Shown here in pieces: positions 3,101 to 63,813 of a stretch of 64,000 nucleotides of DNA (position 1 is its first letter; the number at the start of each line of letters is the position of its first letter). This DNA comes from Lingula anatina (taxonomy: Eukaryota > Animalia > Brachiopoda). The stretch spans positions 40,588,788 through 40,652,787 of the forward strand of contig CM120640.1 of assembly GCA_051362555.1 (NCBI GenBank). The letters run 5' to 3'. The notes beneath the pieces were generated by a model. It saw only the letters and a program-made list of their open reading frames with translations. It ran no database searches and was not told where the DNA came from. The translations under genes were made by a program, and so were the position numbers.

Positions 3101-5895
3101 AAAATGTATGCATATAATAAAAACAAAAAAAGTGTCATTAACAGTGATTTAGCATTCCTTTTAAGTATATGACAGACAAAAACCCAACTCCAAAAATTTC
3201 TTAACTGGCCACAAGACCATATAAAAAAACACCACACAAATGAATTGAATTGAATCAAAATATACCTCTCCCAAGAAAACCACCAGTGCCAGTGTTTTGA
3301 ATATAGAAGGCAACACACTTTTCTTCACCACCATAATCATTAGGCTCATTAGGTCCCCAGTTGAAGTAATTTGCCGCAGAACCATCAGCCCACCTGGATA
3401 ATAACATGTACTAATAAATGTGACCGTAATGTTAAAAAAATAAAAGTTCAGCATTTGAGATGAACAATATTTCATGGAAAGCATAAAATTGTTTTGTAGG
3501 ATATCTGCACAGATTGCATGTGCATCAGATATTCAGTTTATTACTCTATGAGGAGAGGGAGTAATTGGCAATTGAGGCTATTCAAAAAGAGGTCACCATA
3601 ATTTGATCTCACTCCTTGCACACCAGCCAAGTAAAACTGATCAAGAAAACTATGAAAAAGGCTTTACAAGAAGAAACTTGTTTTTCATTTGATCTTGCTA
3701 ATGAATCTCATGCTTCTTAGCAAGGTGTAGATATAAAATGTATAGACTGAGAACCTTACTTCTGACGTATTCCTCTTGCTAACATAAATATGGGAATCAA
3801 CCTACTTGTATCCATCTGTACTGTCCAGCTCATTTAGACCAATCCACATGTACTGCCGACTGGTGTTGAAAAGCTGAGAAGGAATGAAAAACACAATGTA
3901 AATATATTTCATATATGCTTGTTTTTCATTATCTTCAATCCAAATCTTACCTCCAGTGTTTGTTTAGTTTTCGGAATATGGATGAAACTTCAACAATTTG
4001 GACATTTTTGGTCCAGTATTAGATTAGTAACCATGAAGTCTACTACAAATGGATGATTCCCTAACATTTATACTTTCAACAAAAATTTTACCTCTTATTG
4101 CAAATATTTTTAAGATCCTTAAAATTTTGTTTGCCAGTACATGATATATGGTGATATTTTTGTCAGAATTTTACCTGTCCCTGAAGGAAGTTCTGCTCAT
4201 CTTGATTGTGTATTGTTGCCAAGTCTGCTCCCTGAGCTTTACAGAAATCTCTGGAATCATACCAGTCCTTACTGCCATCATTCACTCCACTGCTGAAGTA
4301 GTAGCACTGTCCTTTATACTTGATCCAGTCATTGGAGCCACATATTCCCTCTGTTCAAATATTACATATAACTGAATTTAACATTCTTTTATTTTGAAAA
4401 TATTAATCATATAAATTGTTAAAATTAAACAGTAACATGTTATTTTCAATAGTAGACACTATCTTGGTAGTATACAAAATAATGTGATGTATGGTTATAA
4501 TACAATTGTGCACAAGTCATAATTTTATAAAAAATTAATATAAGCTAGATCAGTTATTTCTTATTCCTTACCTGGTTGTGGAGCAGGAGTTGTGATAACT
4601 ACTTTTGGAGTAACACCTAGAAACAAATGAGCACATTCTTCATCAGAGAGTTCCTGTGTCAGGCTATGCTAGTTTTCATCATGTACAATAATGCCTTTCT
4701 AATTCTTTATTCATTCCAATGCAGTGCAACCAAAATGGACAAACATCACTTTTTAAAAAGATGCTTCCACACATTATAAAACTCCTTTGCACAGTACATA
4801 ACCAATGTCAAGCCAGGCCCATAGGCAAAAAATGGGGGTGGGGGTAGGATTTGGAAGGTTGGAATGACTGAATGTCATTTTGGCTAGAAAATTGAATAAA
4901 AATCCGTCTAGGATCTATAACAGCACTGACGCATGTATAGGTTTCACAGTAAAAAGGTCCAATTTTTCAGAAAAAGAACCCCCTTTGAAAGTGCTGGCTA
5001 CATCCAAATCCATGCTAAATCCAACCACTGCCTATTGGCTTCACCTTTTTTCAGCTTGCAAACCCAGTTCCTGGTAGCATCACAGCGTCTGTCATTCCAC
5101 AATCCAGTGGCTTTGTTCATCTCCACACAATTCTCTGTGCCCTGCCAGTTGTTGGGCTCGCCTTTGTTCCAGCGGGTGTACTGCAGGGCTGTTCCATCAC
5201 TCCAGATGTAGCCTTGAAAAAAGGAAGTTAAATACATGTAGCTTTTAAACAGTGGGAATGCTATCAAAAACTTGCTTATGAAATTGCATTATGGGAAAGT
5301 AATAATGATCCAGATGAAAAACATTTTAACTGTTGCATGACATACAATCTCATATAAAACATTTCCAATATATTGTTAATTGTTGTATGCTCAGAGATTT
5401 TGTAAAAAAACTAAAACTACCATAGTTCCACCTACAGTACCTTTGTTAGTATCTCTGTTATTAAGACCAATCCAGAAGTTATAGTTGCCAGGTTCTGCCC
5501 TGAAAAATGGACAAATGTGTGCTTTCAGATTTGCTACAGTGTATATATTTAAATGAAATGTTATCAGGTGAAATTTTTAGAAGTATAGAGTGATTCCTGT
5601 TTTATTCAACACATGCTTGTCTATGCACAAAAAAAAAAAAAAAAAAAAAAACACACTCAGTTTCCAGTTTCAAGTGCTATTTTATTCTTCCATGCTCTGT
5701 CATCAATGCTATTACTAATTTGTAAATCTAGAACAATTACAACACTCTGACATCTACTTACACCATATACTGTCTCCACAACTGCTCCACCTGGGTGGCA
5801 TTATGAAAACTGGCCAGATCTCCTCCCTTGTCCACACAGTCATCTCTGGCCTCTGGCCAGCGCTTCTGGTAGGTGACAGGCTGGACATTCAACTA

Positions 5896-5947
<52 letters not shown>

Positions 5948-8900
5948 GAAAAACATGCTAAAGATTCATAGTAGTTTTCAGTTTAAATCCAACCACTTCC
6001 GTGATTTTTGTCACCATTCAAATTAAATAGCCATTATTGGTCCTGTCAAAATTTTGGTATGCTAGCTAATTCATAGAAGTAAAGGCTCAATAGGCAGAAA
6101 GTTCTGACTACTCTTTATGTCATGTGCCCACACACCAGTATTTCAGTTTTCACTGAATTCTTAAAAAGAACACAGTAAATGCATCTCCAAAAATAATAAA
6201 TAGCAATTATTAATTCATAATTCATAGATAAGTACAGGAAAACATTTCCAGAGAAAATAATAATAATATATGTCACACGAGAAACTTTAATATAAACTTG
6301 AAAATCTCTGATCTTAACCTGGTAGCAATAGATATCCCCAATGTCACTCCAGCCTGCTGGACACGAGCCCTGGTACAGAGGGGTGGTGGGTGGTTTGGGT
6401 GTGGTCCAGCCTTTCCTGGTCTTCTCACATATAAAGTTACGACTGTACCTACACAAACGGTCATACCATAACCCAGCATTAAGTTTGGTTCCCATAACAA
6501 CACATTGGCCCTGGCGGTCATCTGGAAAAAGGATTTGGAAAATTCTACCATTATTTTAGAGAAAATTACAATTAAGCTAGTTGAGGCTATATAAAGTCCA
6601 TGCAGTTCTTATAGGTAGCAACTTAATTATTGCAGTGTTTTTAACACTGAGAAGCAACCCTGTAAAGAAGCTTTAGAGGACAATTCAAATGAGGGCTGCA
6701 ATGCAGGTTCATGGCCCAATCATGCTTTTGCTTTGCGTGTCAGCACAGGTTTTGAACACTATATCAGACAAAGATGTTTTCATTGCAGTCACTACATGTA
6801 GACTTTAAGTATATGTATATGTGTGTCTCTTTATACTCACCAGGTTGGTTCTTTGCCCAATTTGTATATGGAATGGAAGAATAGCCATCACTCCACTTAT
6901 ATGTCCCAGGGGTGGCACTGTCACTAAGATCTGTCCATACTTCACCAGTACTAAAAGAACTTCCTAACTGACTGGTCAGGTAAGCCTGCTCATTGCTGAA
7001 AAGAAAATTTATCAATTTTACATACATGCTCATTCCACACATGAAATTATGAAAAATAAGGAACTCCTCCTCACATGTATCATTAAAACATCCAAACAGG
7101 AGGATTAAGATGTTTTGTAACATAACTTGAAATGAAACTGGTTGCTAGAGAGTAATTACCATAGTGAAAAAAGAAAAAATACAAGCTTACTTGTCATTTA
7201 CTCTAACTAAAGTAGCACCAAAATTCTTGCAGTATCTTTGGGCATTGGCCCAGTTCCTCAGGAATGGTACAAAGTAGTAACAAGAGTATGAGTATGCCTT
7301 CCAACCCTAAAATACATGTTCAACATAAATAAAGCAATTAATTAATACCAAATGTATTCACACATACAGAATGTGTTACTAATATCCTCTATCTTTATTT
7401 GCTGAAAGACTGTATACAAATGCAATGCTAAAGACCTTATTAAAGCGATCTTAAGGAAACAAAATTCATCATAGCCTACATCATCACAACCCTTTGGTGT
7501 GGGCGTGGTCCTAGGTGAGTCAAACACTTCCTTGCCTTTCTCACACACATAACCTGCATTTGGCACATCACAAACCACATCATCCCAAGAACCATCCTGA
7601 AGAAAAATGGTGAAAAGTTCTCATTATGTTGATTAAATAAATAACAAAACTGAAAAAAAAATTCAGTTTAAATGACATCAAATTAATGCATACAAAGGTC
7701 TACACACCAGTCTCTGAATTTAAGGCTTCCTCAACAATACCCATGTTCCACATTTTCTAACAATATCAACATTCATAATAACTATTTTTTATTTTAAAAA
7801 ATCAGTATATATCATGTGTGGTCTTTTGAACAAAAACAAACAAATGAATACTTATCTCATAATATAACAGAAAAAAACAAACAAAAAAATCAAACATACT
7901 AAGAAGAAAAATAAAAAAATCTACATACCTTTACAACCATCAAAACACAATCTTGTTTCCGTCCTCTGTTGTTGTCTGGTTGGTTGGTGTTCCACAGTGT
8001 ATAGGTGACAGGAGCACTGCTGGACCACTCAAAGTTCATCTGCTGCTGGAGGTCATTGAAGCCATTCCACATTGGTACTTTTGCTAAATTAAAGTAATAA
8101 TAATGACAAATAACAAGCTGTTTTTATCTTAATTTAGAGTTTTTAGGGGGCGGAGGGGGAGAATTCACATGGATTACACTTTGCAATTTAGTTCATCTGT
8201 TTTAATTTGTATCTCTCTGGATTATTTAAAACACCCTTCGTATATCCACATACCAGACAGTCACTACCATAATAATAATAATAGATTTATAGTGGAAAAT
8301 AGAGTGTAAACATAAAACATCAAAGCAATCCACGTATCAAAGCTATAGACAATAATCAGGGCACAAAATACTATACAACATACACATATAACAAATATAT
8401 TAATTACCATTTCTGACAAAGATTGAGACAAAAGCCTGTTCAGCAGCATTCTGTATAGACACTAGTTCACCACCTAGTTTCTGGCAGGCAGCCCTGGCAT
8501 CTGGCCAGGTGACCTTGGTAGTGCTGGCCTGGTAGCAGCTGTCACCAAACTCTGTCCAGCCGTCACCACAGCGCTCAGCATGAGGTGCTGGAAAAAGAGA
8601 TCATATGATAATTTCAAAGAAATTCGACTGAAACAGATATTAAGTCAATTCATTTCATTCCAAGTTGGTTGTAATAATTTTTTCACTCTGAACCAGGTTG
8701 GTATAGATTGTTATATATGCACACTTAATGCATGGGTACATTTGAAACCTTGGTGCTTAATATGTAAGTACAATTCAGAACAAGTCCTCTATACTGGTTG
8801 TCTATAAAAATAAACAGACAATTGATGAAAAACTGGTAATTACCTAAACCAGTGGACCACACAGAATTTACATAGCTGCCACCGCACATGTCCTTGTTGT

Positions 8901-11628
8901 TGGAACATTTCTTATTACACATGGCGCTGGGGCCATGTTTACCATACGAGTTACCACATAGACACATATTTCCTCCTTGGAGAGCAGCATATACATAGCC
9001 CTACCAGATGAAAATCAAAAGTAAGATTTAGGACCAATTTTTTTTTCTGTCACCATCTCATAAAAAATGGTCATAACAAAGATATGTATATATATATATT
9101 TTTTGCCTGGCACATCATACAAGATTGCCAGAGTTATTAATCAATTGATATCAGATTTTAAAAAAAGACCATCAGGTAGGCAAATGGCAACAATATAACA
9201 CTTACAGTCTCATAACAGTGCCTGGTGCAGAACCATGTACCGACATAACGACCCTTCAGAATGCCATTAGCCAGATCTCTGTCTGTCTGCTTGTCATTGA
9301 AGCATCCCATATACTGCGAGGCACTGGGACCTAAGTAAAGGTAACAGATAAGTGTTATAATACATGTATTCACTATCTAAAGATGACCCAGCCAACATGC
9401 AGCTGCATGCTTTTCAAAGTTGCACTGTGAAGACCGTATGAATAAAAGTCATTCATGGCATATTTGTTAAATGCTGAAAACACCATTTCCAAAATATCCA
9501 TTTAAGCTTTTTATCAGTTAGTTATAAGGGGATTTTATAGTAATAAAAAATCAGGTTTTTCCATACTTGGACATCCATAAACTTCCCAGCGCAAAGACAT
9601 ATGCCCCTGCCATGTAGCTGGGTAGAGACGGACATAGCGAGCTATGGGATACCATTTGAAGTAGTTCTTCACCAGTGTATTCCTGTCTCTGTTGCCAGTG
9701 AACACCTTGCAAATAAAATTTAAATACAAAATATGTATTACAAACTTTACATACAAAATGTGTCACTTTTTGCATTATTTTGCAGTGCAGATAAGCAATG
9801 CAGTAAAGACATATTAAACATTTCAATTTTCAAAGCTACAAAACAGGGACCTAGTTTCAGCCCCACTTGCATCACTGACATACAGCGCAAGAGCTAAATG
9901 TTCAGACTCATATCTAGTAAGTTTCAGGTAAAACTGTATAGCTGGCAGTGTAGTAGGTTATAATTAGTTGCACTCACCTTCTTTTTGCCCCCTTCACCAT
10001 AGTTGACCCACTTGGTGCCATTAAAGCTGTAGGCCACACTGTATGTTTTTACCCACTGATTATAATCCTGACGTCCTTGAGTGCCCACACCTGTGATTCT
10101 GGATGGAATTCCTAAGTCAACCTATGGGGAAGATATATTTTAAATACATTACATGAAGTTTTATGTCTGACACTAAATAATTATGTACTTTCCTGTACAT
10201 AAAATGTATACATCTGAACAACTGAAGATGTTTTTTATGTAACATGATGATTTCTATGCAACTTTTGTTTTGTTTGAAGTAAGTTTATGAGGTAAGCAGT
10301 GTTGAAAAGAAGGGAACTTAAGAACATGCAAGCTTCTATTATTGTATCTAAAAATCATGAATTTCTAGCACTAACCTGAATCCAATGTCCAACAGCATTC
10401 ACTTTGCTGGCCCATGCTCCTACCTTCCCTCCCTGTCTGACTGTATTGAGCAGAGAGCGTGAAGGTCCATGGTTACTGTTCCAGCTAGAGGATGCCCTGA
10501 GCCTGTTAATAGGGACAGGGTGGGGTCCATTGATCAATGCTACTGGCTGACAGTCTCCTAAAATATAGAAATTTATGAAATGCATATATGCATGCATGAT
10601 ATGTGCTACTATGTATTTCAGATCAGCAATACTGACATAACGTACAAAAGACATTATACAGCAATTACAGGGAAAAGGGAGGAACTTGTGAGTGAAATGG
10701 CATCGATGTAGACTGAAGAAGTCTGACACTGTAATGTTTCTTTGAGAGCATCTGCTACCAAAGAAAGGGAGAACATACTATTATGCCTGAATACTCCGAA
10801 TCTAACTTTTTTCTATAATCTTAGTAAAGCAAATTATGCCATTTACAAGAAGTAGAAGGCAAAAAAGACGCATGACACAAACATAACACAGAAACAGAAA
10901 AAGTAAACAAGAAAACAGCTCTGTGCTGAACTTACCCGGTAAACAACCCAGGATATCAAACCTGAGCCCTACTGCTACCTGGGCTGTCCCCCTTGGATAG
11001 AGACGCACTGCTGGGCCAACAAACGGAGATTTGAGCCAGTTGGACACCCTGGTATTCTTGTCCTTGTTTGCTGTGAACACCTGTTAGTATTGCAACATCA
11101 TATGAATCAAAGAGACATCAAATAGCAATGCTTATATTACTTTTCAAAAAGATTTCTGCAGTGAGTTGATGCAGAAAAATACTGAGGTTATTAATATGTT
11201 TGTGTTTGTATTCACATGCATGTGTACCTTAGTTGTGCCATATGGTTCCTGGTAAAATTGCCAAGTTTTTCCATCCTCAGTGAACTGCAGTCTAAATGAT
11301 GATGCCCAAGCATTCACGTCTTTCCTCCCCTGGGTTACAATTCCTCTTACCCTGTAGTTGCGGTCTGAAAAAGACAACTTTTCATTAATTTTTGATAAGT
11401 GCTTATTAATATATGCAACTTCATCAGCAAAATAATTGATGATTCATGGGCCAACATCTGACGAAGTTGTATTTAATGTTTAATTACTTAACTAACTAAT
11501 CAATTAATTAATTATTTTCTCTCATGTCTTGATCAGCTCCTGGGGAAACACCCGGACTAAACTGCAGAGCCAGCGATCCCATCAGGATTTCACCTTGTAC
11601 AGTGTCTAATCCAACTGATTTGAGTGTG

Positions 11629-11676
<48 letters not shown>

Positions 11677-14600
11677 AAGTTGCCTATCTCTCATACATAC
11701 ACTCTGAATCACCACAGTATGTCAGAAAACAAATTTTGACTTGAGCCATATAGTTATTACAAGAAGGACACTATTTTCTTACTAAAATTGATCTGAATGT
11801 ACTCTGTATCTGCACTGGAAGATGGTGACCACCCAGTGTTGGAGTTGAGACGTGCATTAAATGGCTGGTGGTTGTTGTCTATCTTGGATGAAGCTGTCAG
11901 AGCAGAGTTAGCGGAGTATATTGGTCCACTCACCAGCCCCTCTGGGTTGCACTCCTCTGTAATAAGGATCATCAGAAAATGTATTATCACATTTTCTAAA
12001 CTCACCCTTTCATATAATCTGCTGTGTATTGATAATCAAATATAGGGCAACACAGCAACTAGTATGAAAGGGTAGTACAGTTTCCATGTCTGATCAACCT
12101 TCACAGTCTTTTATCTTTTGGTTAAAGGGATAATAACTTTTCTTATGAGATCTATATTTCACAATTAATACATTGTAAGCAACTCTAGAATAATATAAGA
12201 TATTCTTTTTTGCCACTAAAACGGCAGTTGTAGCAATAAATGTGAAATTTATGCTTGCCATCAGACCACGTGACCTCCATAGATGACTGTACTCTGTAAT
12301 AATCTCTTATGAGATCATTACAAAAAAAAAAAAAAAAACAAACTTTTTAGAAAAAACCAGGGACTAACTTTGAATGTAGAAATGGATTCATTAACCATTG
12401 GCAAGTATGGGAAAATTGCTGTTTATCCCAGGAAAATTCATTTTTTGGCCAAAATGAACAGTTGTTATCCCTTTAAGAAATTGATGTATAAAAATTAACT
12501 AACTTCATTTCACTCTAACACAGAACCAATGTCTTACTATTTTTTAATTGTTTATTAAAATAAACATTGTTAAAGAAAATGAATATTTACCATAACTGCA
12601 CCCCAAAATTTCCCATCTCATAGAAATATGCCCATTCCATGCTACAGGGATCAAGCGTACATATCTGGCCTTCAGTGGATAGGTCAGGGTGTTGGTCACC
12701 TTGGTGTTCTGGTCCTTGTTAGCAGTGAAGGTCTACAAATGCATAGGTGACATCTGCATTTTATACCTGTATTTGTTGTCCATGGTTTAGACACTTAACC
12801 ATGCTCAATTATAGGTGGCTGTCAGTTAATGGTAATAATTGTATGTAGCACAGGTAAATATAATAGTGCTGTACATGTTAGGCAATTTGAAAAGGTTGAA
12901 AATTGAAAACAATAAACCAGGTGTATTCAGTGCATTTTGTATTGTGGAAAACATCAATTTTCAGGTTTCCCCAAACAAACAAAAATGAAAAACACTCAAA
13001 GCTTAATCAATAAGATGCCTTACCTTGAGAGTTGCAGGGGGATCATAGTACCACCTCCAAGGAGAATCATCATCATATCTGTATAATATCCTGTACCTCG
13101 TGACCCACTGCCTGTAGTCAGATCTGCCCTGGGTGACTATAGCATTCACTGTGATTGGCACCAAGAAGTCGGCCTGGATCCACTGGTTAGCATTGTTTGA
13201 TCTGGCAGACCAGGCTCCTTTTCTGCCACCTAGAATGTGACCAGATGGGTTATATAGGGCATTGTTTATTGATATTTCACCAAATATTTTATGTGCACCT
13301 TCTTTTAAAAAAACATGAAACAATTAAACTGAATAAATCACTGTGCATAAACTTAACATTTAACTGATCTAGAGGTGAAAAACAACACTGCTAACAACAT
13401 TATCAACATAAAAAGTCACTCTCTGTAGAAACATTTGAAGACCAGTAAAGAGAAGTTGTACATCTGTACCTAACACATAGTGTTTAAAAACATTACATAT
13501 TTCATTTTGTTAATATCTTTCATTCCCTACCATATGGATTGCTGATTTGCCACTGTCCAGTTCCCCCAGTGGTCATCACTGACAAAGTGGACACAGAATA
13601 TGGACTTGGGTCAGCATAGTCCACCAAGACATTTTGACCCACAGTCGTCCCACTACCAAGCTTAATGTGACCGCCATCCCAACTTAGCCAGAAAGCCTGG
13701 AAAGTGTTACAATTGAGGACTGTAGGTGTCAGCTTGGTGCCAAGGTTGCGGCCATTTGCCTGCTCCCTGATCACTGTAGTTGACCCGGCACTGCCACTGA
13801 AAAAGATTGAAGACATCCAGTCTGTTAAAATAGTACTCACTGCTATTATGACATATTTCTCTCTCCATTACTATTTGCACCGCCTTAAATTCATCTGTGA
13901 ACTGGGTGAAAAGAATACATCCCAGTTAAAAATAAAAACGAAAACTAAGCTTTAGAAAAGCTCAAGGCTTACATTATTATTGATAAGTAAATGTAACAAT
14001 ATACCTGTTGATTACAATTTCATATTTGTTTCTATCTTTGCTGTTTGTGGTCGGTGAAAGTGCCACATAGGCAGCCCTGCACGTTTTCACTTTGAAGGTA
14101 ACAGACAGAGATCCCATCAGGTTCAGTCCAGGGACATTCACATAGGCATTCGCTTTGTTTGGGGTGTTCAATGGAATCATGGTTCCTGAGATATTGGAAA
14201 TGAATGAATATAAATTTTATTTTCTATACTTCCTTTAAAACTACAGTATGCCTGGTTTTTACACATTTTTTATAAAAATACACCTGACATGCAGTAATTG
14301 ACTTCTGTTCTTTGGAAAATTTGAAAAATAATCAACAGTTATCAAATAAAGGGCAACTGCAGACTTTATGATAGGCTTGCCAACTAGACACCATTCTTCA
14401 AAGTTACAAAACATCACACAATTTGATACTGGATTCAATTTGTACACTGCCCAGTATAAATATGTCAATGAGTCTACTTCTTACGTTTTTTTTTACATAT
14501 TTGTAGTTACGAATTGTTAAATTAGTTTAACTTTTCAACCTACTTCCTGCCTGGAAGTCCAGTCTAGCATTGTTAGGTCCATGGTTGGCATCATACTGAG

Positions 14601-17600
14601 AGGAGGCAGTTATTTCTCTATCTGGTATGTAATGGTCACCAGAGATCATAGGCCCTGGGCTGGAACAGTCCACTGGAAAAAATTGTCATTCTTGTGTCAT
14701 GTCATGTACTGTTTTAAATATTTCAGTTAATTCATTCATACGTAGATGTGCTCCAGCTGTTATTATTATATGTCACTTCAAAATAATTTATTAGGAAGTA
14801 AAAATACAAAGACATTACTTTCTGAACTTTAAATCAACAATACAGCACATCAGAAGTGAGATTTACTAAAGACCATATTGTATAGGCCTACAGTTCTGTC
14901 ACCTTTCCCTTACCTGGAGCTGGGGTAGTGGCAAGAGCAGGACGTGGGGTGGTTTGAAGAACTGGAAAAAGTTTAAGAAGATATTCAGATTATCCAATTT
15001 TTTTTACCTTGCACTAAATCATTCAATATTGAACTTCAACATGACTACTAGTATTAGTATCATCTAATGTTTAATAGAATTATTTTAATGCACGTTTATT
15101 TTGAACTGTAGCTGCCATAGTTAAAATTTCATCTACTAACCACTTTTTTTGCACAAGGATCTACTCCTGGAGTTACAATTGTAGTCGTTCCATTTCCCTC
15201 CTTCCTTAGTCAGAATAATAGCACAGTCTTCTCTACTTCTGAAATTATTTGGCTCCCCTGCAAGAAAAAATAGTGTGAAGAGTCATATACTGGGTATATC
15301 ATAACTTTAAATCTAAAATCTCAGTCACTGCATACTGTGAGACAGATGATGCATTTATCACTCTTAATATTATCACTACTAGTTTCCATCTGTTTGACAA
15401 AATTACTTAAGCATTTATGAATCATGAAATGTTTCATTCAGAAATAAAGCATTTTTCCATCCAAAAGTGCATGAACTGTCTAATCACTAAAATTATTTTA
15501 AGTTTACTATATGCAGATATTGAAAATAAACCAGCGACAAAAATTGACTTCATGAAATTTTAATAAACTGAGGAAACTGCCAGTATTATCAGAATAAACA
15601 CTGCTGCCACCTACCAGAATTCCAGTTGAAGTACCTAAAAGGAGAGCCATCAGACCACTCCCAGCCACCCTCTCTGTTCACATCATTGGCACCAAGCCAA
15701 AAATCGGTGCCCGTCTGCTGCGATATCAGAGCTGGAAAAGACATTTAAATTAAACAAACTGAGAACTTTTCTTTAACAAATGGACCCCTTTTTAAGTTTA
15801 AACTTCCTATTAATGACACTTGTGACTGTGATCTACAATATTTGCTTTTCAAAATGCAAAACTTGCACTGATAAAGTCAGTTGAGGACTCATCTGAATAC
15901 AGTCTTAAGTAACATCTCAATTAAACTTTCAAAGAAACTTATCAGTAATTACCTGAACAATAAATACTTGGATGAAAAAAGACAACAAGAAAACAAAATA
16001 ACATTTAAAATTTTCACTTTTCACAAATTCTAGTACATGAATACTTTCATGGATTACAAACCTGAAACATATGTCTGTTCTGTCACACTACCAATACTTA
16101 ACAGGTCACCTCCCAATGCAATACACTTTGATCGGGCCTGTGCATAGTTCTGGAGGTCATAGTTGAATTGATAGCAAAAATTCAGGTTGGATTCATAAAA
16201 CCAGCCTGCTCCACACAATGGACTCCATGGTCCTGGAGAAAATTTGATTATATTTTAATAAAATATCTTAATGCTATGAAATATAATAGTAAGTGGTCAT
16301 GACTGATTTTTCATATCATTATGATAAATATGTACATTGACTAAAATGTGTAGTATATATAAAAGCAAAATAAAAAAAATGAATGAATTACTTTAACAAA
16401 ATTTTTAAAAAGTACACAGATTACATACCTATCGAAATTATCATGGTAATGTAAAGAATAAAATGATCTACGAATTTTTCATGAAGAAGATAAATTTTCA
16501 CAATATGAGAGAAATGAATTTTTATTGAATAGAAGGCTAATGCTTACTTGTGGGTGGTGGTGTGGTGGGAGCACCAACATCTGAAAAATAACAAAGTTAA
16601 CTCAGATAAATACAATTATAAAAACAAATGTATCACTAGCTACAGGGTACTTACTAGAGAAGTAATCATTTTTCATTGTTTTTATCAAGCAGTGAAAAAT
16701 GCAAGCTATGCTTTCGTTGAGATCAAATCAAATCAATAACATTGACATACATGCTTGAGATTTGCAAATAAAGTCTCTCTTTATAGCACAGGTCTTGTCA
16801 TTCCAGGCTCCACTTTTCCCAAAAGCATTTGGTCCCAGTAGTTCAGCACAGTCTTCATTGTTCTGATTGTTGGGTTCACTCGGTGTCCACCAGTTAGTAA
16901 ATGTGGTTGTCTGTGTAGTAGAGGCAAAATACACATTTTATTATTAAACAGACTGGTTCTCTAACATTGAGATGGATTTTTAAAAGTCCATTCATTCTTT
17001 AAAATATGGTGTCAACATCAAAATATGCCAACCTCAGTGGCAAACAATTTATTCTTTATTATGTAAAGCTTGCATAAAACTTTAATTAGCTTCTATCAAA
17101 GTTAGTATATCAAACCAAATGATCCAATTTGTTGGGTCACTATGAAAGATATATCTATACTAAATCATGTTTTCTGCAAAAATAAAGGTTGCATTTTTGA
17201 TTATTTATGTTCATCAGGATTGACAGACAGACAGACAGACAGACAGACAGGCAGAACCATGGAATATACTTACTGCAGTTCCATCAACCCATTGCCATTT
17301 CTTCTCAGTCTTTATATCATCATACCCAATCCAGCTGTAACCAGTCAGATAGTCTGAAATACAATACAATACAGGAACAACTCATAAACAGTGACCCAAT
17401 CTACATAGAATTTAACAGATAATATGAACAAATTACTATTTTGGGGAGAGGTTTTAAAAAAGACCAAAAAAGGTCTGTTCAGAATCAAAATTCAATCTAT
17501 GTTCTATGCTATTTATCAATTTGGTTCATTTTTTTCAAAGACAAAGAACCCCCAACTTGAAATTGTTGGCTGTAGGCCACTGAACTAAAAAAAGGCAACC

Positions 17601-20600
17601 AAATATATATATATATATAACATATAACATTGCGACCTTATTTCCAGAATTCATCTTGTGTTTTGCTTTTCTCTCCATCAGGTTTGAATGAAAATGTGCC
17701 ATTTCCACAAATTTAAGCTTAAATTAAACTACTCACTACTGATAAATCCCTGCTCTTCTTCATCCAAGATTGAGGTCAGTGTAGCCCGCGTGCCATCTGG
17801 TGTCCTCTGGCAGTACGCGACAGCATCCTTGTAAACCTTCTCCTGCGTGACAAACAGGTAACAGTTGCCCTTGAACAGTCGCCAGTTGGGAGCACATGTC
17901 ACGTTCACTGTAACAGTGTGTATATATATAAATGTTAATTTCATTTATATTTCATGTTAAGAGTTGATCATTTAACTTTCGATCAATACATTTTATGTAT
18001 CTATTTAGTGTCTAAAAGGCACAAGTGCCTAAAAATAATTTCAATTTCTGGGAAATATTTACAGCAGCTGGGAAAAATTGCTCTGTTTAAGAAGTTATTT
18101 TAAGATACTATGGCTTATACTTATTATTCTTCTAATTTTTCTGCTTTAATTTTCCTCTAACATCAAATCAAGAGTAAAGCTATTTAGATTCTCAAATGGA
18201 TAAACTCAGTAAAATTTCAATCTGGTACATGAGAAAGAGACTATTACCTGGAGTAGCTACCAATTTTCTTGAAATTGGAATCTCACAGATGAAAGCTTTC
18301 TTATTGTAGCAATATCCAGCCGTCCACTGTGCAAATCTATTAGCTGTAAAAAATTTATTGTGAAATCTTTACCATGGGCAAATACCCAGAATACAAGTGC
18401 CTCATTGCAACTCATATGAACAGTCAAATAACAGCATTCAACAATTAATTCAAGGGATAGAACTTTTAACATATATACATATAATAATCATAAAGATTCA
18501 AGGAATTTTTTTCATTAATAGCTCAGCCATTTTAACCTCAGATCAAGTTACAATGAAAATATCCTAACCTATTCGTATGTAGGCACAGTCCTTCAAGTTT
18601 GCCACTGGCTTTGGCTGGCCATTTTCCCAGTATGGTTTATACACTGCAGCTGTCTGACTCAAGAGTGTGCCATCAGACCATTTCATTGTACTGTCAGCAG
18701 TTGTATCTAAAAAGATATCATGAAACACAACACTGATTAAATGTAATAACAAATCTAGGAATAAACATCACTTAAATTTCATAGGCAGATGATAGAAATG
18801 AGTGCCAAGACAAGAGACACTCAAGAGCTTCACATTAGGTAAACATACCAGAGAGGCCAATCCAGTAATCAGTCACCCTGGCCGTTCGCATTGGTCCAAT
18901 TAAACTCCTCATATAATTCCTTTCATTGGCACTGCAAAAGTAATAAGTAAGAAGCAATTAAGTTACCATGTCTGTTATTATGTTTACAAAGCTACCATGC
19001 ATTCTAAAACTTCTTCAGACAACTAAAAAAACAGGATAACTTATGCAATCATCCAATCAAGCCAATAAGCAAACATTAATCCATATCTTAGGCTTCGTTC
19101 ACATGCAATGTCTATTTTCTAAATTCTATTTTCTATTCGCAGCATGTCTTATGATCACGGTCTGTGCCCTTAATATCCTGCGGCGTAATTACTGGCAGCG
19201 CGAGCCAGTTACTATAAGTTACTATAAGTAACTGGCTCGCGCTGCCAGTAATTACGCGGCGGGATATTCAGGGCACAGACAGTGATCATAAGATAGCGCG
19301 AATAGAAAATAGAATTTAGAAAATAGACATTGCATGTGAACGAAGCCTTAGACTATGAGATTAAAGCAAAACAGTGAAACTTTTTTCAGTGGATGGTGTT
19401 AACAAAATTAAAGAAAATACAAACCAACACACAGACTACAGCAATACTAAATGTACATGAACCAGTGTTTAAGTAAAATAAGAGTTAATTTGATGTAGAT
19501 GTATGTTTTCCTTACGTTTCAATCTGGATAAGGGTGGAACCCTGAGCTTTGCAGAACCTATCAGCTTCTGTCCATGTCATCTGTTTTGATGTAGCAGTGT
19601 TCAGTTGGTAGCAATTACCATTCCAGCTTCTCCATCCCTTGGGACATGACCCTGAACAAGAGTGATAAACAATATGAATCACTGATTTCATATAATAGTA
19701 TGTGCAGGTACACATCTTTTCTCAAATTGTTTCGCCAATTTTTCTCAAAATGTTTCACCACACAAATATATATTAATCCTGCAAGTGACTCACATTAACA
19801 AATACAGATGATAAGGCATAAAACTTCCTCCAGTAACGAACACCTTAAAAATGTATAATTTTATCTGAGGTGGCATAACATAAAGAACCATGGTTAGGTC
19901 TATTACCTCTGGGCCGCTCACAGATGTAAGACCTTTCTACACCACAGGCATCTGTCCTCCATTTGTAATTTGATGTTCCCAGAACAAAGACACAATTGTT
20001 GCCAAGGGACCTAGTTATGTTACAAAAAGATCTGTGATTTACATAGAGCTTAAACCATATTCTGTGAGTAAGAATTATAATCATAGGACACACCAAAGAA
20101 AAGACTACACAAAGTCACACAGCTTAGTTTGACTTTTCTGAAATGTTTATGCAATGATTGCCATATTGAGAGAAGTCACCGACACCACGTACATTACTGT
20201 AAGCTGTATCAATCTATCTCAGTTCATCACTCAGCATTGTTTACTATTCCAAATTTGGGATAATTAGATTATTTCAAAACCATTCAACTTACACATTTGA
20301 AGGCTGGTTTGTATCCCACTGTCCTCTGAAAGCATTGTTGAATCCTGCTTTGTTCACCCATTTGAAAGTCATGGGTTGGGCCTGAAACTTTAAAAAAAAA
20401 TTGCCTTGAAAATAAAGTTAATCACACAACAACCATTACTAAATTTCCAAAACACGTCTTTGCACAGAATCTTATTGTAATATTGTCATGTTTTAAGTCA
20501 TACTTTTGCAACTATACAGGGTAAAAAAAGGAATAAGTGGAAATACATTTAGTGTTTACCTCCATTTTAAGTAAAAAATACTACCCCTAAGTTAAAGCAC

Positions 20601-23600
20601 ATTCTTAAAATATACACTGTCTACAACGATAACAATTTGACCTACTGAAACATATAGTGGAAATTGTTCATTCGGAAGAAGTCAGAAGAAAAGGAGAACA
20701 TGAAGAAAAAAATAGATTACATCTATGACTTATAGACCTGCTAAACTCCACCACAGGTAAAAATCAACCAATATTCCCAAGTTTACAGCTTACTTCTTTT
20801 CTATCCGAAAGCCCAAGCCAAATATTGTCATGAAGTCCACAAGAGATAGAATCAGATATAAACTTGATCTCGTTAGTGTTCTGGACCACCATCAGGTCGC
20901 CATCTTGATCCTGGCAATCCTGTCGCGCACCGTCCCAGGTTTTTGGATCTGAGAACAGTTTGTAGCACATGTTGTTGAGGAAATGCCACCCATCTTCAAT
21001 ATCACAAAACTCAACAAGATCTGAAAAAATAATGTCAAATAAGAAAGGTATATGATTTTTTTTAACATCATAAACATAAATAATAAAAATATAACATGAA
21101 TAGCTTTCTGACGAATAATCTATGCTCCTAGACCAAGTTTATTATCTTCAACTAAAAAAAGGTGCTGATTGCACAACTATTAAGAGGTTTAACAGTGACT
21201 ACAATTAGTACATTCAACTTACTGTTTTTCCTTTTGCAAATATATGGCATATTTGCATTGCAATTGCCATCATTCAACTTGCTACCACCAGTACGGTACC
21301 AATTGTGTACACAATCTTCACTCTTTTTATAGTCATCTGGCTGTCCATTTGACCACAGAGTATTTCTATAAAGACAAGTTAAAATTTGAATTTATCTTAA
21401 TTAAGACTGCTTAAACTAAGAATGACATTTGTATTGAAATGTTTAAAAAAATCAATCAAACCACTTTTGAAATAAAAGCAGTACATAAAAAAGAATACAT
21501 GGAATGAGAAAAGCTATGTTTTAAATTTAAACATGAAAGGACCAAACTTTTACTTGTGATGCACTATTTAGCTGAAAGCTGCCCGTTTACTTACAACAGA
21601 GTCTGATTGACCTTTGTCCTATCGCTCCAGACAAATGTGCCTTCCTTAGCCTTGTCATTGAGACCGAACCAGTACTCCCTTCTTTTAATGTTCAGTTGGC
21701 TGTCTATAAATGCCTGCAAAATAATAATAATAATTACATAATGGTTATACACTACGGTAATTACTCAATCTTTTCAATGGGCATTTTTTTATGATCACAA
21801 AAATAATATATCTACATAGCTGTTACTGTACAAAAAAGATTTACAGAGTAGCCTGTTTTTAAATATTTAATATACCACTCAATAGGAATGTTATAACTTT
21901 GAGAAACTATATGACTTAAAAAAATACAGTATCTCTAAATTAGAAATTTCCCACCAATGAAAAGAGTTGTGTATACAAGTACAGAATTGGTAAAAGTTAA
22001 AGAGACAATTATGGCAGTCAAAGTTACATTTTAGCCCTCCCACAATTTTTTTTCTACAGAAAAATAAGTAAAAGAGTTTATAAACAATACAACTCCCTTC
22101 TGAATTGCAAAAACACTGATCCACCATTTCAAGGAGTTTTAATGATTGTACAGTATACCAATATTGACTGGCAAAGGCCACCTAACACTTAATTAGCTTG
22201 TTATAACCAGAAGCTGGAATAGTTGAGGATGCTGTAGTTTACTACAGCAATGACAAAAAGACATATTTTAGTGAAACTACTAGTCTTCTCTTTATAACAT
22301 CATCTGTAGTTCACGTGTAGTTTATCTGTAGTTCTTAAAACATTGCTGAAATCACATAGGAATAGTAGTCTTGGTCAGTCTGCTGTCATTCATAGGGACT
22401 GCAGCCTGTTCCAAAGAAGGATCATTTTAAGTTTTACTTCTAATTAGATTGAAAAGGCCGTCCAAGCCGTGTCTTCGTACTGATGTTGATTCCCTTCCGC
22501 AGGGCATTTAGTGGTGCAAACTCCACTCCAAGAAATGCCTTTGAACTCCATAATTGGAGAACTAGTGTCACACTTGCCATGTAGTTCAAAACACCGTACT
22601 CCTGAACAGTTATCAAAACACTATACTAAGTGCTGAATAAATGTTTTAAAATAGGCCTACTAGTAGTATTGTATGCTGCGCGAATTTCAAATATTGGCTA
22701 AATATTTGGGAGAAAAATAAAGGCAAATTAACGGCGCATTTCAACGTCTATGTCTAGCACGAAAATTCATGCGTTAGCACTCCTATTGACGATTCTGATA
22801 TGTACTGTCTGTGCTAACAGTAGGCCTACATATCAGAATCGTCAATAGGAGTGCTAACGCATGAATTTTTGTTCTACGTCTATGTCGTGCGCATGCCCAG
22901 CAACTTCATCAGGAAACGATAAACCATACCCACGTGCCACAAAATTCTAAAAATATATTAATTATTAAGAACGTCTCTGTATGTTGCCATTTGTAGTTAT
23001 ACAAGTAGAATTGAAATGGTTTAGAACTAACATACTTCGTCCAGATAAAAATTAAGTCAACGCCACAGAATAGGGATTTTGAAATCGTTTTCGATACTTT
23101 CTTTGATACCACATCAATGTCACCTTCACACTTTCCGTTAAAACAGATTAAAATGTATTGGCCTAAAACTACATCAGGTTTTAAAACTGTTATCATTATG
23201 TGCGTGATAGCGACAATTTCGACAACTAATCACAGTGTTTTAAAGATGGCACAGTCAAATATTTTAGATGATAATCAGCCGAGCTCTATTTCTTAAACAA
23301 AAAATAATAAAATAAAATAAAATAAATTAAATTAAATAATAATCCCGTTAACTATCGAAGTTTTACAGGCCTACTTCATATTGATAGATTTACTGTAAAC
23401 ATTGAGCGTGAGTTTTGTTTATCATAGGTAGTTGCCCATATCTTCGTAATTATGAAAAAATAAGCAGTAAATGACAGTATTTCAGTTAAGATAAATGACT
23501 CAAAAATCCATAAAGAAATCAACTTTCACAAATTTGAAGTCCATTGATACAGTAGGCCTCTGTAGGCCTCTAGATGTGCAGGTTTTGCGTATAATAAGGC

Positions 23601-25660
23601 ATACTCTCTAAAATATCTGTCATGAATTTATTTAAAGTATTTGAAATTAAAACAAAATTCAACAATGATGTACAATATCACCCGTCTGTAAACATTGGTT
23701 TTGGATAATAGTGACAATGGCACTGTTACATTCAGTGTAAATACTGGCCTGTACAGGAATGTAGACACTTGATAACCCCCCTCCCTCCCCCCACAGTGAT
23801 AACAACGCGGTCATTAATTAATACCAACTTGGATGTTCATGAAGTTAATATATAACAACCTACAAATATGCTTTCACGTTTCATTTCCCGTTTTTAATCG
23901 CATTATCGTTTCGTAAGGGGGCAACTAGAACCCCGAGTTTTAGCGTCCCAAAGGTCACCGTTTCAGTTCTAGTACGGAGCAGGTGTGTTGAAAATATTCC
24001 ACGGACTAAACAAAGAAAAACACCCAAATAACATTGCAGTCACAGATATCTTCGCCAAGAAAAATATCAAACATGATCGCACAAGACGATACAGTAGTCT
24101 TTCATATTGTTTTCATCGACAGCCTTATTCTTGATATTATCGTGCAAATGTAATAGAAGCCAACTTACCCACTCGTCCGCGTTTGCAACACTGGCCAAGT
24201 TGCCTTGCCTTCCCCTGCATACAGCGTTCGCATCATTCCAGTTCCACACAGCGTCACTGAAGTAGTAGCAGAATCTGCCGTAGCCGACCCATCCCTTCGG
24301 ACATTTGAAGTCCTGAGCGGATGCTTAAAATGTCATTCATAAGACGTAAAATCATTGTGGTGTTCATAAATTATAAGCGGCTGTTATATTTCACTGCTTT
24401 GGGGAAAAATGGAAATAAAAACATTATGATAAAAAATTATGGACAAAAAATTACACACTATATTCAGTCAACTTATCTTGTTTTTGTGATCAGACCATGA
24501 CCTGTAAGTCAGTCGCTGAATTAAGTGGGAGGAAACCCTGTACATACTGAACTGATATTGATAGATAAAATTAAACAGACAGGTGAATGATACAAGGGAG
24601 GGGGAGGGGGTGAGACTGGACGCCTTGATATCTGTTCGAACAATAGCACGAAATTATCATTTGGGGGTTAAAAATGAAGAAGTGATTATTTTAAGGCATT
24701 TTAAACCTCTTTGAAAGAATTGGAGGACGATTGTCAACACAAGCAAGTTGTCATATGTAGAGCTACAGTATTGGGGATTAAATTCGGAATAATTATTTCA
24801 CGCCCGACCCTTTGAATTTCATTCTCCCTGTCCTTTAAGTAAGCAATTAATTACTTGTGTTTGTGAACATCACTTTTCTTGCCATACATAATTCTAAACA
24901 TTGGACGAAAGTTTGTTCTTAACTATCAGGACGAAGAGTCGCTCTTTTATTTAGAAATTTCAAGCCGTTTTATAGACATCACAAAAATATTGATGTTTTA
25001 TAAGGTAATGTTCGTCTAAGAAGTTAAGACAAAAGAGTTTAAATAGCTAACGCCGCACAAGTTATTTTGTTTGACATATTCGGGGCTAATATAAAATAAA
25101 ATATAAGTAATGGATATTTTAATAAACTTAAAAGTTTAGAGATACCGAACGCACAAAAGAAGGAAGAAATAAGAAGTGACTATCAAAATAATAACAAAAA
25201 TTATAATAATACTATTTTGTGAAGCCTATGGAAAAAGTTTTGCATATGGTCAAATGTGTGTGAAATACATATTGCTGAATATATTTTGCCCCCTTTTAAG
25301 GCTATAGAGAAATCTGCAGGAAACACTCGTCTTGGCCGAGGGGAAACAGCTGTAAGCGCTAATTGCCAAAAGTATTTACAGAAGCAATTTCCAATAAATC
25401 ATTTTAAAACTCGTGTTATGTATTAGTATAGGCGCACTGGTGTATATATTGTCTTTTCGTTGAAAATCATTTGTAAACATATGTAAAACTCGACAGATTG
25501 CATTACATCACCCGCATATACTAATTCGCTAGCGGTTTTTCCATGTTGCAATGCGCTCGCAGAGCATATTCAACTATTCTAGTCTTATCATTCTTAAAAC
25601 AAGTAAAAATATCAGAAACTCACCTGCGCTGATCAGCAGAACAGCTAAGAGAAACTTCAT
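29..25660 (-). CDS. Giant multi-domain C-type lectin (mannose-receptor-like mosaic: SP, 5xCTLD, 3xF5/8C with nested FAMeT, WSC, 6xCTLD, LCCL); 3' end lies beyond the left edge
   Basis: 52 phase-consistent GT-AG exons in transcript order: 25624-25660, 24169-24323, 21595-21713, 21223-21365, 20794-21020, 20293-20381, 19907-20010, 19516-19651, 18849-18931, 18569-18706, 18248-18343, 17737-17907, 17274-17353, 16751-16910, 16548-16580, 16062-16232, 15615-15731, 15141-15257, 14914-14961, 14544-14672, 14005-14185, 13531-13796, 13024-13229, 12591-12732, 11783-11956, 11228-11364, 10936-11080, 10376-10557, 9978-10121, 9567-9705, 9206-9330, 8844-9000, 8408-8587, 7929-8083, 7480-7596, 7191-7306, 6841-6995, 6319-6521, 5762-5892, 5441-5499, 5045-5212, 4572-4616, 4175-4350, 3806-3873, 3266-3393, 2756-3022, 2337-2506, 2021-2120, 1475-1731, 1083-1245, 704-767, 29-119. 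Sum 7164 nt = 2388 codons. N-terminus MKFLLAVLLISAASA-QDFKCPKGW is a signal peptide. Repeated CTLD motifs (CY, WIGL, W.DG, EPN/QPD, WND..C). Confidence 0.9.
1083..8587 (-). other. Second CTLD array (CTLD6-11)
   Basis: Six CTLDs with site motifs QPD/WDD, QPD/WYD, EPN/WND, EPN/WND, EPN/WND, EPS/WSD, several separated by Pro/Thr-rich linkers. Confidence 0.88.
5896..5946. repeat. (AAT)17 microsatellite
   Basis: Direct read; abuts the splice acceptor at 5893-5895. Confidence 0.95.
8844..9330 (-). other. WSC carbohydrate-binding domain (2 exons)
   Basis: YMGCFNDKQTDRDL...C...C..GYVYAALQGGNMCLCGNSY...C...C......CGG....SVW follows the WSC cysteine pattern. Confidence 0.88.
11629..11673. repeat. (ATT)15 microsatellite
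   Basis: Direct read, intronic. Confidence 0.95.
12126..12472. mobile_element. Non-autonomous DNA transposon with TTAA TSD (Kolobok-like MITE)
   Basis: TTAA(12122-12125)-AGGGATAATAACT ... AGTTGTTATCCCT-TTAA(12473-12476): 13-bp TIR with one mismatch. TTAA TSD with purine-purine termini is the Kolobok signature. Confidence 0.65.
13531..14185 (-). other. FAMeT-like (Methyltransf_FA) domain, 2 exons
   Basis: F.VKTCRAAYVALS...YEIVI.......TVIR.....TPTVLNCNTFQAFWLSWDGGHIKLGSG....(YADP) matches the FAMeT-domain pattern (F.V.A..DA...L, YE..IG, IR, L...E...FWI.W..G.I.VG). Confidence 0.75.
17222..17249. repeat. (GACA)7 microsatellite
   Basis: Direct read, intronic. Confidence 0.95.
19091..19347. mobile_element. 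PIF/Harbinger-type MITE, near-perfect 257-bp palindrome
   Basis: TTA(19088-19090)-GGCTTCGTTCACATGCAATG ... CATTGCATGTGAACGAAGCC-TTA(19348-19350). Arms about 120 bp with a 13-nt loop. 3-bp TTA TSD and GGC termini fit PIF/Harbinger. Confidence 0.85.
22755..22876. mobile_element. 122-bp foldback MITE with 10-bp TSD (Mutator-like)
   Basis: Perfect 43-bp inverted arms 22762-22804 / 22827-22869 extend with two mismatches to TAG...CTA termini. CGTCTATGTC is repeated directly at 22745-22754 and 22877-22886. Confidence 0.75.

Positions 25661-27846: not shown

Positions 27847-31390
<3,544 letters not shown>

Positions 31391-54828: not shown

Positions 54829-54862
<34 letters not shown>

Positions 54863-58473: not shown

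Positions 58474-58519
<46 letters not shown>

Positions 58520-63775: not shown

Positions 63776-63813
<38 letters not shown>

What the first reader, a model, noticed from the sequence alone, without database searches (positions are those of the whole stretch)
13024..14672. FAMeT-like domain nested inside a discoidin (F5/8C) domain as a skippable two-exon cassette
Seen: the first F5/8C domain is split. Exon 14544-14672 ends ...ITASSQYDANHGPNNARLDFQAG and exon 13024-13229 resumes GRKGAWSARSNNANQWIQAD. Between them lie two exons (181+266 = 447 nt = 149 codons, phase 1 at both ends) encoding a whole FAMeT-like domain. In the third F5/8C domain the same segment is contiguous in one exon (RSLLNTVRQGGKVGAW). 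Known: the ARL-x-AW segment is one of the ligand-facing spike loops of coagulation-factor C2-type domains, and catalytic activity of FAMeT-like domains is disputed. Inference: a domain grafted onto the binding face of another; skipping both exons restores an intact discoidin domain in frame, a possible splicing switch. An extracellular position also argues for a binding rather than methyltransferase role.
Basis: partly seen in the sequence, partly recalled or inferred. Interest (0 to 1): 0.75.

Follow-up and report, generated by a model that had tools for sequence, protein, structure and literature searches.

The report
Lectin-like module nested inside discoidin domain
In a large animal lectin-type receptor gene, two exons splice a whole so-called farnesoic acid methyltransferase domain into the middle of a discoidin domain, and RNA reads show it is included; it is predicted to be a galectin-like module that likely binds sugar from the discoidin's ligand-facing loop, and the proposed on/off splicing switch was not seen in the few samples covered.

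Summary
The nesting is real. On the minus strand, exons 14185-14005 and 13796-13531 (149 codons) encode a complete PF12248 domain inside the first F5/8C domain of a receptor gene of at least 52 exons: signal peptide, 5 C-type lectin domains, 3 F5/8C, WSC, 6 more lectin domains, start of LCCL. RNA reads join both borders (11 and 10 reads). Without the insert, the host scores best of the gene's three discoidin domains and its loop has the commonest family length, so the insertion is clean. It sits about two residues before the position that aligns with the spike-2 tip of factor V C2. A 37%-identical relative folds as an all-beta, CBM66/galectin-like sandwich, which favours binding over methylation. 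The switch is not supported: no skip junction was listed, the cassette's splice sites are average, and all 12 domain-boundary introns checked are phase 1, so in-frame skippability is generic here. None of 193 fetched relatives has this nesting, and no paper searched describes it. The spliced protein could not be folded, and the insert lacks four family-conserved residues, so binding is inferred. Verdict: new variant of a known kind.

The parts
14544..14672 (-). Exon 20: N-terminal part of F5/8C domain 1, up to the spike-2 loop; ends in phase 1
   Evidence: 28.9 bits vs max 5.1 in 500 shuffles; RNA joints at both ends
14005..14185 (-). Exon 21: first part of the inserted PF12248 (FAMeT-like) domain, phase 1 to 2
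   Evidence: PF12248 3-52, E 4e-5; joint 14544>14185 in 11 reads
13531..13796 (-). Exon 22: second part of the inserted PF12248 domain, phase 2 to 1
   Evidence: PF12248 58-139, E 1.6e-12; joint 13531>13229 in 10 reads
13024..13229 (-). Exon 23: F5/8C domain 1 resumes at the spike-2 tip
   Evidence: joint 13024>12732 in 10 reads
12591..12732 (-). Exon 24: C-terminal strands of F5/8C domain 1
   Evidence: PF00754 86-127, E 1e-8
10936..11956 (-). F5/8C domain 2, uninterrupted (exons 11956-11783, 11364-11228, 11080-10936)
   Evidence: 136.7 bits; joint 11228>11080 in 4 reads
9567..10557 (-). F5/8C domain 3, uninterrupted (exons 10557-10376, 10121-9978, 9705-9567)
   Evidence: 167.2 bits; joint 10376>10121 in 6 reads
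8850..9330 (-). WSC domain (two exons)
   Evidence: PF01822 38-82, E 1e-6, second exon; first exon no hit
25624..25660 (-). First coding exon: ATG and signal-peptide-like hydrophobic leader
   Evidence: judged by eye, no predictor run, not covered by the RNA lays
15141..24323 (-). Five N-terminal C-type lectin-like domains (exons 2-18)
   Evidence: 5 hits, 78-99 bits; most exon ends modelled, not read-confirmed
14914..14961 (-). Pro/Thr-rich linker exon before F5/8C domain 1
   Evidence: joints at both ends
1083..8587 (-). Six further C-type lectin-like domains
   Evidence: 6 hits, 92-119 bits; exon ends modelled
29..767 (-). Start of an LCCL-like domain; the gene runs off the window
   Evidence: 39% over 38 aa to the LCCL of P0164, pairwise E 1e-8

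Best explanation
A 149-codon PF12248 module is spliced into the spike-2 loop of the first discoidin domain of a large multi-lectin gene, and it likely folds there as a separate galectin/CBM66-like sandwich that would act as a likely constitutive sugar-binding-type cap on a receptor, not as an enzyme or a switch. Shown: the exons, the frames, both border junctions in RNA, intact host halves, and an insertion point that aligns just before the spike-2 tip of factor V C2. Predicted from a 37%-identical relative: the all-beta lectin-type fold. Inferred: (1) the module arrived by exon shuffling as a phase-1/phase-1 unit; (2) its two ends lie close enough for the host barrel to close around the graft; (3) it projects from the face where discoidin domains bind ligand, so it would extend or replace that site; (4) the protein is a membrane lectin receptor of the DEC-205-FUSE / amphioxus LY75-like type, used for recognition and uptake of glycans; (5) the insert's specificity has likely shifted, because four family-conserved residues differ.
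For: Splice sites and open frames. Split Pfam pattern. 21 inclusion-joint reads in 3 runs, with no skip joint listed. The insert-free domain scores 177.4 bits against an outside profile, above domain 3 (167.2) and domain 2 (136.7). Its Arg-to-Trp loop is 12 residues, the mode among anchored domains (47 of 107; 117 aligned). The resuming exon aligns with factor V C2 at the GRVNAW segment, whose Arg43 is the spike-2 tip (PMC11098723, passages). The spliced insert matches a profile of 47 outside PF12248 proteins over positions 7-147 of 159 at 148.9 bits. The relative P0052 model has pLDDT 91.9, 12 strands and one 4-residue helix; it matches CBM66 (Z 13.0, rmsd 3.1, 136 aligned), the galactocerebrosidase C-terminal region (Z 12.3) and galectins (Z 11.9). 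[quoted passage not shown] The closest architecture relatives P0164 and P0162 end in a hydrophobic segment and a short tail (read by eye).
Against: The spliced domain itself was not folded, and the fold comes from a relative. A shared fold shows no function. The insert differs from the family consensus at D37 (67% of occupied rows), H39 (52%), G59 (88%) and N64 (83%) among 214 domains from 112 proteins, so it may bind nothing. No relative with the same nesting was found in 193 proteins, so conservation is unshown. RNA depth is low, and the junction reads come from 3 samples of one study. Run X4 had a few reads on the two insert exons and none on the flanking host exons. The internal joint 14005>13796 was not listed. 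The C-terminus is outside the window, so a membrane anchor is not shown.
Confidence: 0.6

Rival explanations
1. The insert is a tolerated passenger or spacer: it folds but binds nothing, and only blocks or distances the first discoidin site, with domains 2 and 3 covering the function.
For: Four family-conserved residues are changed in this copy. Two uninterrupted F5/8C domains follow in tandem. No relative keeps this nesting among 193 examined.
Against: The insert keeps the core residues and two cysteines and scores 148.9 bits. The host halves have not decayed and score best of the three domains.
Confidence: 0.2
2. The two exons are a regulated cassette: skipping restores a plain discoidin domain and switches ligand specificity in some tissue or stage.
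For: Skipping both exons gives an open frame and a loop of modal length. Insects vary their pfam12248 copy number by conserved alternative splicing (PMC10015273, passages). The acceptor at 13229 is weak, rank 36 of 37. Sampling is shallow: with 0 skip against 10 inclusion reads the 95% upper bound is 26%.
Against: No skip joint was listed, where no joint rows were marked as hidden; listing needs 3 reads from 2 starts. Depth at the exon ends leaves room for about 2 unexplained reads in X1, none in X2 and about 1 in X3. The cassette's acceptor ranks 23 of 37 and its donor 19 of 38. Phase-1 borders are generic: 12 of 12 domain boundaries and 22 of 37 introns.
Confidence: 0.12
3. The arrangement is not a true nesting: the host halves do not refold together, or the FAMeT exons mostly belong to a separate transcript.
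For: No model of the spliced domain was obtained. Run X4 showed depth near 1 on the insert exons only.
Against: Both border junctions are read directly. The halves cover complementary profile ranges, 8-38 and 40-150, and join to 177.4 bits.
Confidence: 0.05
4. The insert is an active farnesoic acid O-methyltransferase displayed on a receptor.
For: Only the family name.
Against: The relative's model is all-beta. The insert has no GxGxG motif. It lies behind a signal-peptide-like leader among extracellular domains. Activity has never been reliably shown for the family (PMC10015273).
Confidence: 0.03

Closest known systems
Fugu DEC-205-FUSE (PMC514892, passages)
   Same: A large predicted protein with 5 N-terminal C-type lectin domains, a central FA58C and LCCL block and 7-10 further lectin domains.
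   Different: It has one FA58C and the LCCL in the middle. Here there are three FA58C plus WSC in the middle, the LCCL comes after lectin domain 11, and a PF12248 insert is present; the passages read mention no such insert.
Branchiostoma 'lymphocyte antigen 75-like' proteins P0164 and P0167
   Same: C-type lectin arrays with F5/8C and LCCL; 35.8% identity over 1184 columns to the window protein from domain 3 onward.
   Different: Two separated, uninterrupted F5/8C domains and a SUEL lectin domain; no PF12248. Orthology was not established.
EukProt protein P0162
   Same: A run of C-type lectin domains followed by three tandem F5/8C domains (24% over 1244 columns).
   Different: All four of its F5/8C domains are uninterrupted; it carries kringle, LamG and SEA domains instead of WSC and LCCL.
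PF12248 (Methyltransf_FA) modules in extracellular proteins: sea star Sfp adhesive proteins, CPAMD8, mollusc shell proteins, and P0036/P0151
   Same: The same domain in secreted mosaic proteins, with unknown function in the sea star paper (PMC9382459, PMC9363628, PMC8194122; passages). P0036 and P0151 hold it in tandem with F5/8C.
   Different: In the proteins I mapped it lies beside F5/8C, not inside it. The passages read do not describe nesting.
Coagulation factor V C2, lactadherin and retinoschisin discoidin domains
   Same: Sequence match of the resuming exon (E 2e-10 to 1e-5); the insertion site aligns with spike 2.
   Different: In factor V C2 spike 2 is the short spike (PMC11098723); here 149 residues are grafted at it. 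The ligand of the window's domain is unknown.
CBM66, galectins and related concanavalin-A-like sandwiches
   Same: Fold of the insert's relative: Z 11.6-13.0, rmsd about 3, 121-138 residues aligned.
   Different: Sequence identity is 3-16%. The galectin His-x-Asn-x-Arg signature (recalled) is absent from the insert by reading.

Membership tests
F5/8 type C (discoidin, PF00754) | Profile match along the whole domain | tested here: met
   Halves match profile positions 8-38 and 40-150 of 151; the insert-free form scores 177.4 bits. Pfam 23-82 and 86-127.
F5/8 type C (discoidin, PF00754) | Cysteines at both ends of the domain (disulfide recalled) and Arg-Leu...Ala-Trp loop of usual length | tested here: met
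   A cysteine at each end; loop of 12 residues, the mode in 47 of 107 domains.
F5/8 type C (discoidin, PF00754) | Eight-stranded beta-barrel formed by both halves | not testable with these tools
F5/8 type C (discoidin, PF00754) | Ligand binding at the spike face | not testable with these tools
   Needs a binding assay.
Methyltransf_FA (PF12248) | Profile match over the whole domain | tested here: met
   Pfam 3-52 and 58-139 of 140; 148.9 bits over positions 7-147 of 159 of an outside profile; Atlas feature score 0.97, with recognition below the Atlas threshold.
Methyltransf_FA (PF12248) | Conserved core aromatic and glycine residues | tested here: met
   W96, W99, G107, G109, W142, Y54, E55, R70 and both cysteines are kept.
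Methyltransf_FA (PF12248) | Consensus Asp, His, Gly and Asn at insert positions 37, 39, 59 and 64 (my alignment, not a published signature) | tested here: not met
   The insert has Ala, Tyr, Asn and Gly; family frequencies are 67, 52, 88 and 83%.
Class I SAM-dependent methyltransferase | Glycine-rich SAM-binding motif I (recalled) | tested here: not met
   No GxGxG in the 148-residue insert.
Class I SAM-dependent methyltransferase | Alpha/beta Rossmann-type fold | tested here: not met
   The model of a 37%-identical relative has 12 strands and one 4-residue helix, pLDDT 91.9. Tested on the relative, not on the insert.
Galectins | Beta-sandwich fold | tested here: met
   Relative's model: Z 11.9, rmsd 2.8, 126 aligned to galectin-9N; CBM66 is slightly higher at Z 13.0.
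Galectins | His-x-Asn-x-Arg galactoside-binding signature (recalled) | tested here: not met
   The insert's single His is not followed by this pattern (read from the translation).
Mannose receptor family (group VI: MRC1, DEC-205) | Tandem array of C-type lectin domains | tested here: met
   11 domains in the window; 5 carry EPN with a downstream WND.
Mannose receptor family (group VI: MRC1, DEC-205) | N-terminal cysteine-rich and fibronectin type II domains (recalled) | tested here: not met
   The first lectin domain starts at residue 27 of the gene model, right after the leader. The 5' model is not read-confirmed.
DEC-205-FUSE / amphioxus LY75-like mosaic lectins | Two lectin clusters with FA58C between them, plus LCCL | tested here: met
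   5 + 6 lectin domains around three FA58C; an LCCL start at the window edge, in a different position.
DEC-205-FUSE / amphioxus LY75-like mosaic lectins | Transmembrane segment and cytoplasmic tail | not testable with these tools
   The gene runs off the window and no genome is held.
Alternatively spliced cassette | Skip junction present in RNA | tested here: inconclusive
   Not listed against 21 inclusion-joint reads in 3 samples of one study; low depth and a 3-read listing threshold.
Alternatively spliced cassette | Weak splice sites at the cassette borders | tested here: not met
   Acceptor 14185 ranks 23 of 37 and donor 13531 ranks 19 of 38 under a rough matrix made from this gene.

The most novel reading that the evidence does not exclude
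The misnamed FAMeT domain is a mobile lectin-fold plug-in that is repeatedly grafted into loops of other beta-sandwich binding domains: F5/8C spike 2 here, apparently MAM domains in Owenia P0155 and in a receptor phosphatase, and a discoidin-like domain in P0035. Here it builds a composite two-domain binding head on the discoidin's ligand face, which skipping of both exons could revert in tissues not sampled.
Probability: 0.2. Interest if true: 0.75.

Novelty: new variant of a known kind. Interest (0 to 1): 0.5.

Why it matters
PF12248 is still annotated as a methyltransferase although activity has never been reliably shown (PMC10015273), and its role in sea star adhesive proteins is called unknown (PMC9382459). 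An expressed copy grafted at the ligand-facing loop of a discoidin domain, in an array of eleven lectin domains, argues for a binding role. It also gives a ready three-way test: host with insert, host without it, and insert alone. It shows that spike 2 of a discoidin domain can probably carry a whole domain. The surprise is limited: insertions occur in about 20% of multidomain proteins (PMC13114784), conservation is not shown, and the switch was not seen.

Tried and rejected
No whole genome is held, so the 3' end of the gene and paralogues could not be read. Word-based homologue searches with exon 22 and exon 23 among proteins up to 2000 aa found nothing (weak evidence). The representative search gave 1090 hits at E<=0.001, of which only the best 150 were listed and examined; an orthologue could be among the other 940. 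The third search gave 43 proteins of 2439-5000 aa. Of these 193 proteins, five carry both domains by my profiles (P0036, P0151, P0166, P0168, P0175), all side by side. P0181 has both by its Pfam list, but my F5/8 profile did not locate its domain. PDB sequence searches for the insert found nothing significant. No methyltransferase appeared among the listed fold matches; the wide VIA search never ran, and absence from a list excludes nothing. The complex predictor was not available, so nothing was folded there. The model of the P0035 segment left the host part at pLDDT under 50, so nesting there is undecided. The Owenia P0155 MAM N-terminal pieces scored weakly: 5.2 bits (0 of 200 shuffles, maximum 5.0) and 1.1 bits (10 of 200); the first piece got no Pfam hit. 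RNA: no indexed RNA holder was listed. 7 of the 9 raw-read runs were laid (X6 and X8 were not). X5 had no reads on 12520-15400, X7 had essentially none on the cassette, X4 and X9 had depth near 1 with no listed joints there, and hid 5 joint rows. Nine literature searches listed no title or abstract on this nesting; one search read the term as 'methyltransffa'. A term search of the three held supplements of PMC13114784 found neither family name; other supplements were not searched and could hold a listing. The look-up of earlier findings for look-alike stretches was empty. Rejected: phase symmetry as evidence for a switch, and membership of the canonical mannose receptor family.
Full report
Observation. 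The full splice is open. Dropping both middle exons (447 nt) is also open, and dropping either one alone is not. Pfam places PF12248 positions 3-52 and 58-139 on the two middle exons, and PF00754 positions 23-82 and 86-127 on the next two; the first exon has no Pfam hit alone. A profile from 114 outside F5/8 domains scores that first exon at 28.9 bits on positions 8-38, and the part after the insert at 136 bits on positions 40-150. The best of 500 shuffles of the first exon reached 5.1 bits. The split is therefore not chance.

The gene. A model with nearest AG/GT ends gives 52 exons and 2374 codons without a stop, running off the window. The order is: signal-peptide-like leader, five C-type lectin domains, a Pro/Thr linker, three F5/8C domains, WSC, six more lectin domains and the start of an LCCL domain. 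Five lectin domains carry EPN with a downstream WND; that this pair marks mannose-type calcium-dependent binding is recalled. Seven introns are read-confirmed and the rest are modelled. The insert is residues 787-935 inside domain 1 (745-1051). No genome is held, and I did not identify the organism.

RNA. No indexed RNA holder was listed; nine raw-read runs of the same species label were offered and seven were laid. Reads join 14544>14185 (X1 4, X3 7) and 13531>13229 (X1 5, X2 5), and also the neighbouring host and linker junctions. The skip junction 14544>13229 was not listed; listing needs 3 reads from 2 starts. Depth at the exon ends leaves about 2 reads unexplained in X1, none in X2 and about 1 in X3. 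With 0 skip against 10 inclusion reads the 95% upper bound on skipping is 26%, and with 2 it is 44%. The internal junction 14005>13796 was not listed. X4 had depth near 1 on the insert exons and none on the flanking host exons, X9 had depth near 1, and X5 and X7 were uninformative. About 6% of X1-X5 was read, and the junction reads all come from one study. Inclusion is shown; skipping is not seen but cannot be excluded.

The host is intact and the graft is clean. The insert-free domain scores 177.4 bits, above the uninterrupted domains 3 (167.2) and 2 (136.7). Its Arg-to-Trp loop is 12 residues, the commonest length (47 of 107 domains with both anchors, of 117 aligned). The resuming exon aligns with the GRVNAWQ segment of factor V C2. 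PMC11098723 (passages) defines Arg43 as the tip of spike 2 and Gln48 as part of the lipid pocket; the five-residue spacing fits this segment. The insert thus sits about two residues before the spike-2 tip.

The insert. It matches a profile of 47 outside PF12248 proteins over positions 7-147 of 159 at 148.9 bits and has no GxGxG motif. A 37%-identical single-domain relative, P0052, folds with pLDDT 91.9 into 12 strands and one short helix. Its listed Foldseek matches are galectins, legume-type lectins, glucanases and carbohydrate-binding modules (best E 2e-5). The second aligner ranks CBM66 (Z 13.0, rmsd 3.1, 136 aligned), the galactocerebrosidase C-terminal region (Z 12.3) and galectins (Z 11.9) first. 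[quoted passage not shown] Against a simple lectin reading, this copy keeps the core but differs at four consensus positions, D37, H39, G59 and N64 (67, 52, 88 and 83% in 214 domains from 112 proteins). Whether these residues form a ligand site is not known.

The switch idea. Phase symmetry carries little weight here: 12 of 12 introns at domain or linker boundaries in exons 1-33 are phase 1, as are 22 of the first 37 introns. Any whole module of this gene is skippable in frame. The cassette's acceptor ranks 23 of 37 and its donor 19 of 38 under a rough matrix from this gene; the downstream acceptor at 13229 is weak, rank 36 of 37. In favour, insects do vary pfam12248 copy number by alternative splicing. 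Symmetric phases are a recognised sign of insertion into an intron: 28 of 49 middle gains in PMC2926785 (passages), which also says this route explains under 10% of domain gains. Domains 2 and 3 have no intron at this loop, so a pre-existing intron there is not shown.

Relatives. Two word-based searches were blank. The representative search listed 150 of 1090 hits, and the long-protein search gave 43. None of the 193 shows this nesting; five carry both domains side by side. The closest architectures are amphioxus LY75-like P0164 and P0167 (35.8% over 1184 columns for P0164) and P0162; all their F5/8C domains are uninterrupted, and P0164 and P0162 end in a hydrophobic segment and short tail. 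Fugu DEC-205-FUSE has the same overall plan (PMC514892, passages), and clam mannose receptors include FA58C domains (PMC12321717, passages). Two hits hint that nesting recurs. In Owenia P0155, two arrays of eight PF12248 domains each precede a MAM domain that lacks about its first 45 positions, but the N-terminal pieces score weakly. In P0035 the module follows Pfam position 83 of a discoidin-like domain, but the model of that host failed. An earlier AI note, e1-7709290, reports nesting in a MAM-like domain; I did not test it.

Mechanism, most likely. A PF12248 exon pair was shuffled into the spike-2 loop (inferred). The host still folds (inferred from intact halves), and the insert forms a lectin-type sandwich (predicted from a relative) on the ligand face, extending or replacing that site in a large glycan-recognition receptor (inferred from architecture and relatives). 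I put this at 0.6, a folded but inert passenger at 0.2, a regulated switch at 0.12, no true nesting at 0.05 and an active methyltransferase at 0.03.

Novelty. Nine searches listed nothing on PF12248 inside an F5/8C domain. I read passages of nine papers and no whole text: PMC9382459, PMC12321717, PMC9363628, PMC11098723, PMC10015273, PMC8194122, PMC13114784, PMC2926785 and PMC514892. Domain insertion as such is common, at 20% of multidomain proteins, and inserts tend to be 50-200 residues with close ends (PMC13114784, passages); its three held supplements contain neither family name. Most subscription journals and database annotations were not searched. The pairing and the site appear undescribed, while both parts and the receptor type are known. 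Verdict: new variant of a known kind, interest 0.5.

Noticed in passing
window 12113-12485: MITE-like element in the intron between F5/8C domains 1 and 2: 30-nt terminal inverted repeats, 80% complementary, with high read depth on both strands and loose ends at both borders in all four runs, so a multicopy repeat.
   Followed up: partly
P0155 (Owenia fusiformis, 2943 aa), residues about 63-1256 and 1446-2642: Two arrays of eight PF12248 domains, each followed by a MAM domain lacking its first part, with a MAM-like start in front of each array: possible nesting of whole arrays. The N-terminal pieces score weakly.
   Followed up: partly
P0035 (912 aa), residues about 578-829: A PF12248 domain follows Pfam position 83 of a discoidin-like domain, so it may be nested at a different loop; the model of the host failed.
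   Followed up: partly
window 28165-29889, minus strand: Exons that read like electron transfer flavoprotein alpha, just upstream of the lectin gene (name recalled from the translation, no family search).
   Followed up: no
window 41918-42886, plus strand: Single long ORF with a forkhead domain, FoxB-like (name recalled).
   Followed up: no
window about 51500-59020 (minus) and 60940-64000 (plus): Two divergently oriented ammonium-transporter-like genes; at 53759-54158 two overlapping frames each encode a similar stretch, which may be duplicated or mutually exclusive exons (names recalled).
   Followed up: no
window exons 9500-15400: Reads differ from the window at many single exon positions, with two alleles at several sites, which suggests a highly polymorphic species.
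   Followed up: no
window 13229: The acceptor of the exon where the host resumes is among the weakest of the gene, rank 36 of 37, yet it is used in 10 reads.
   Followed up: partly
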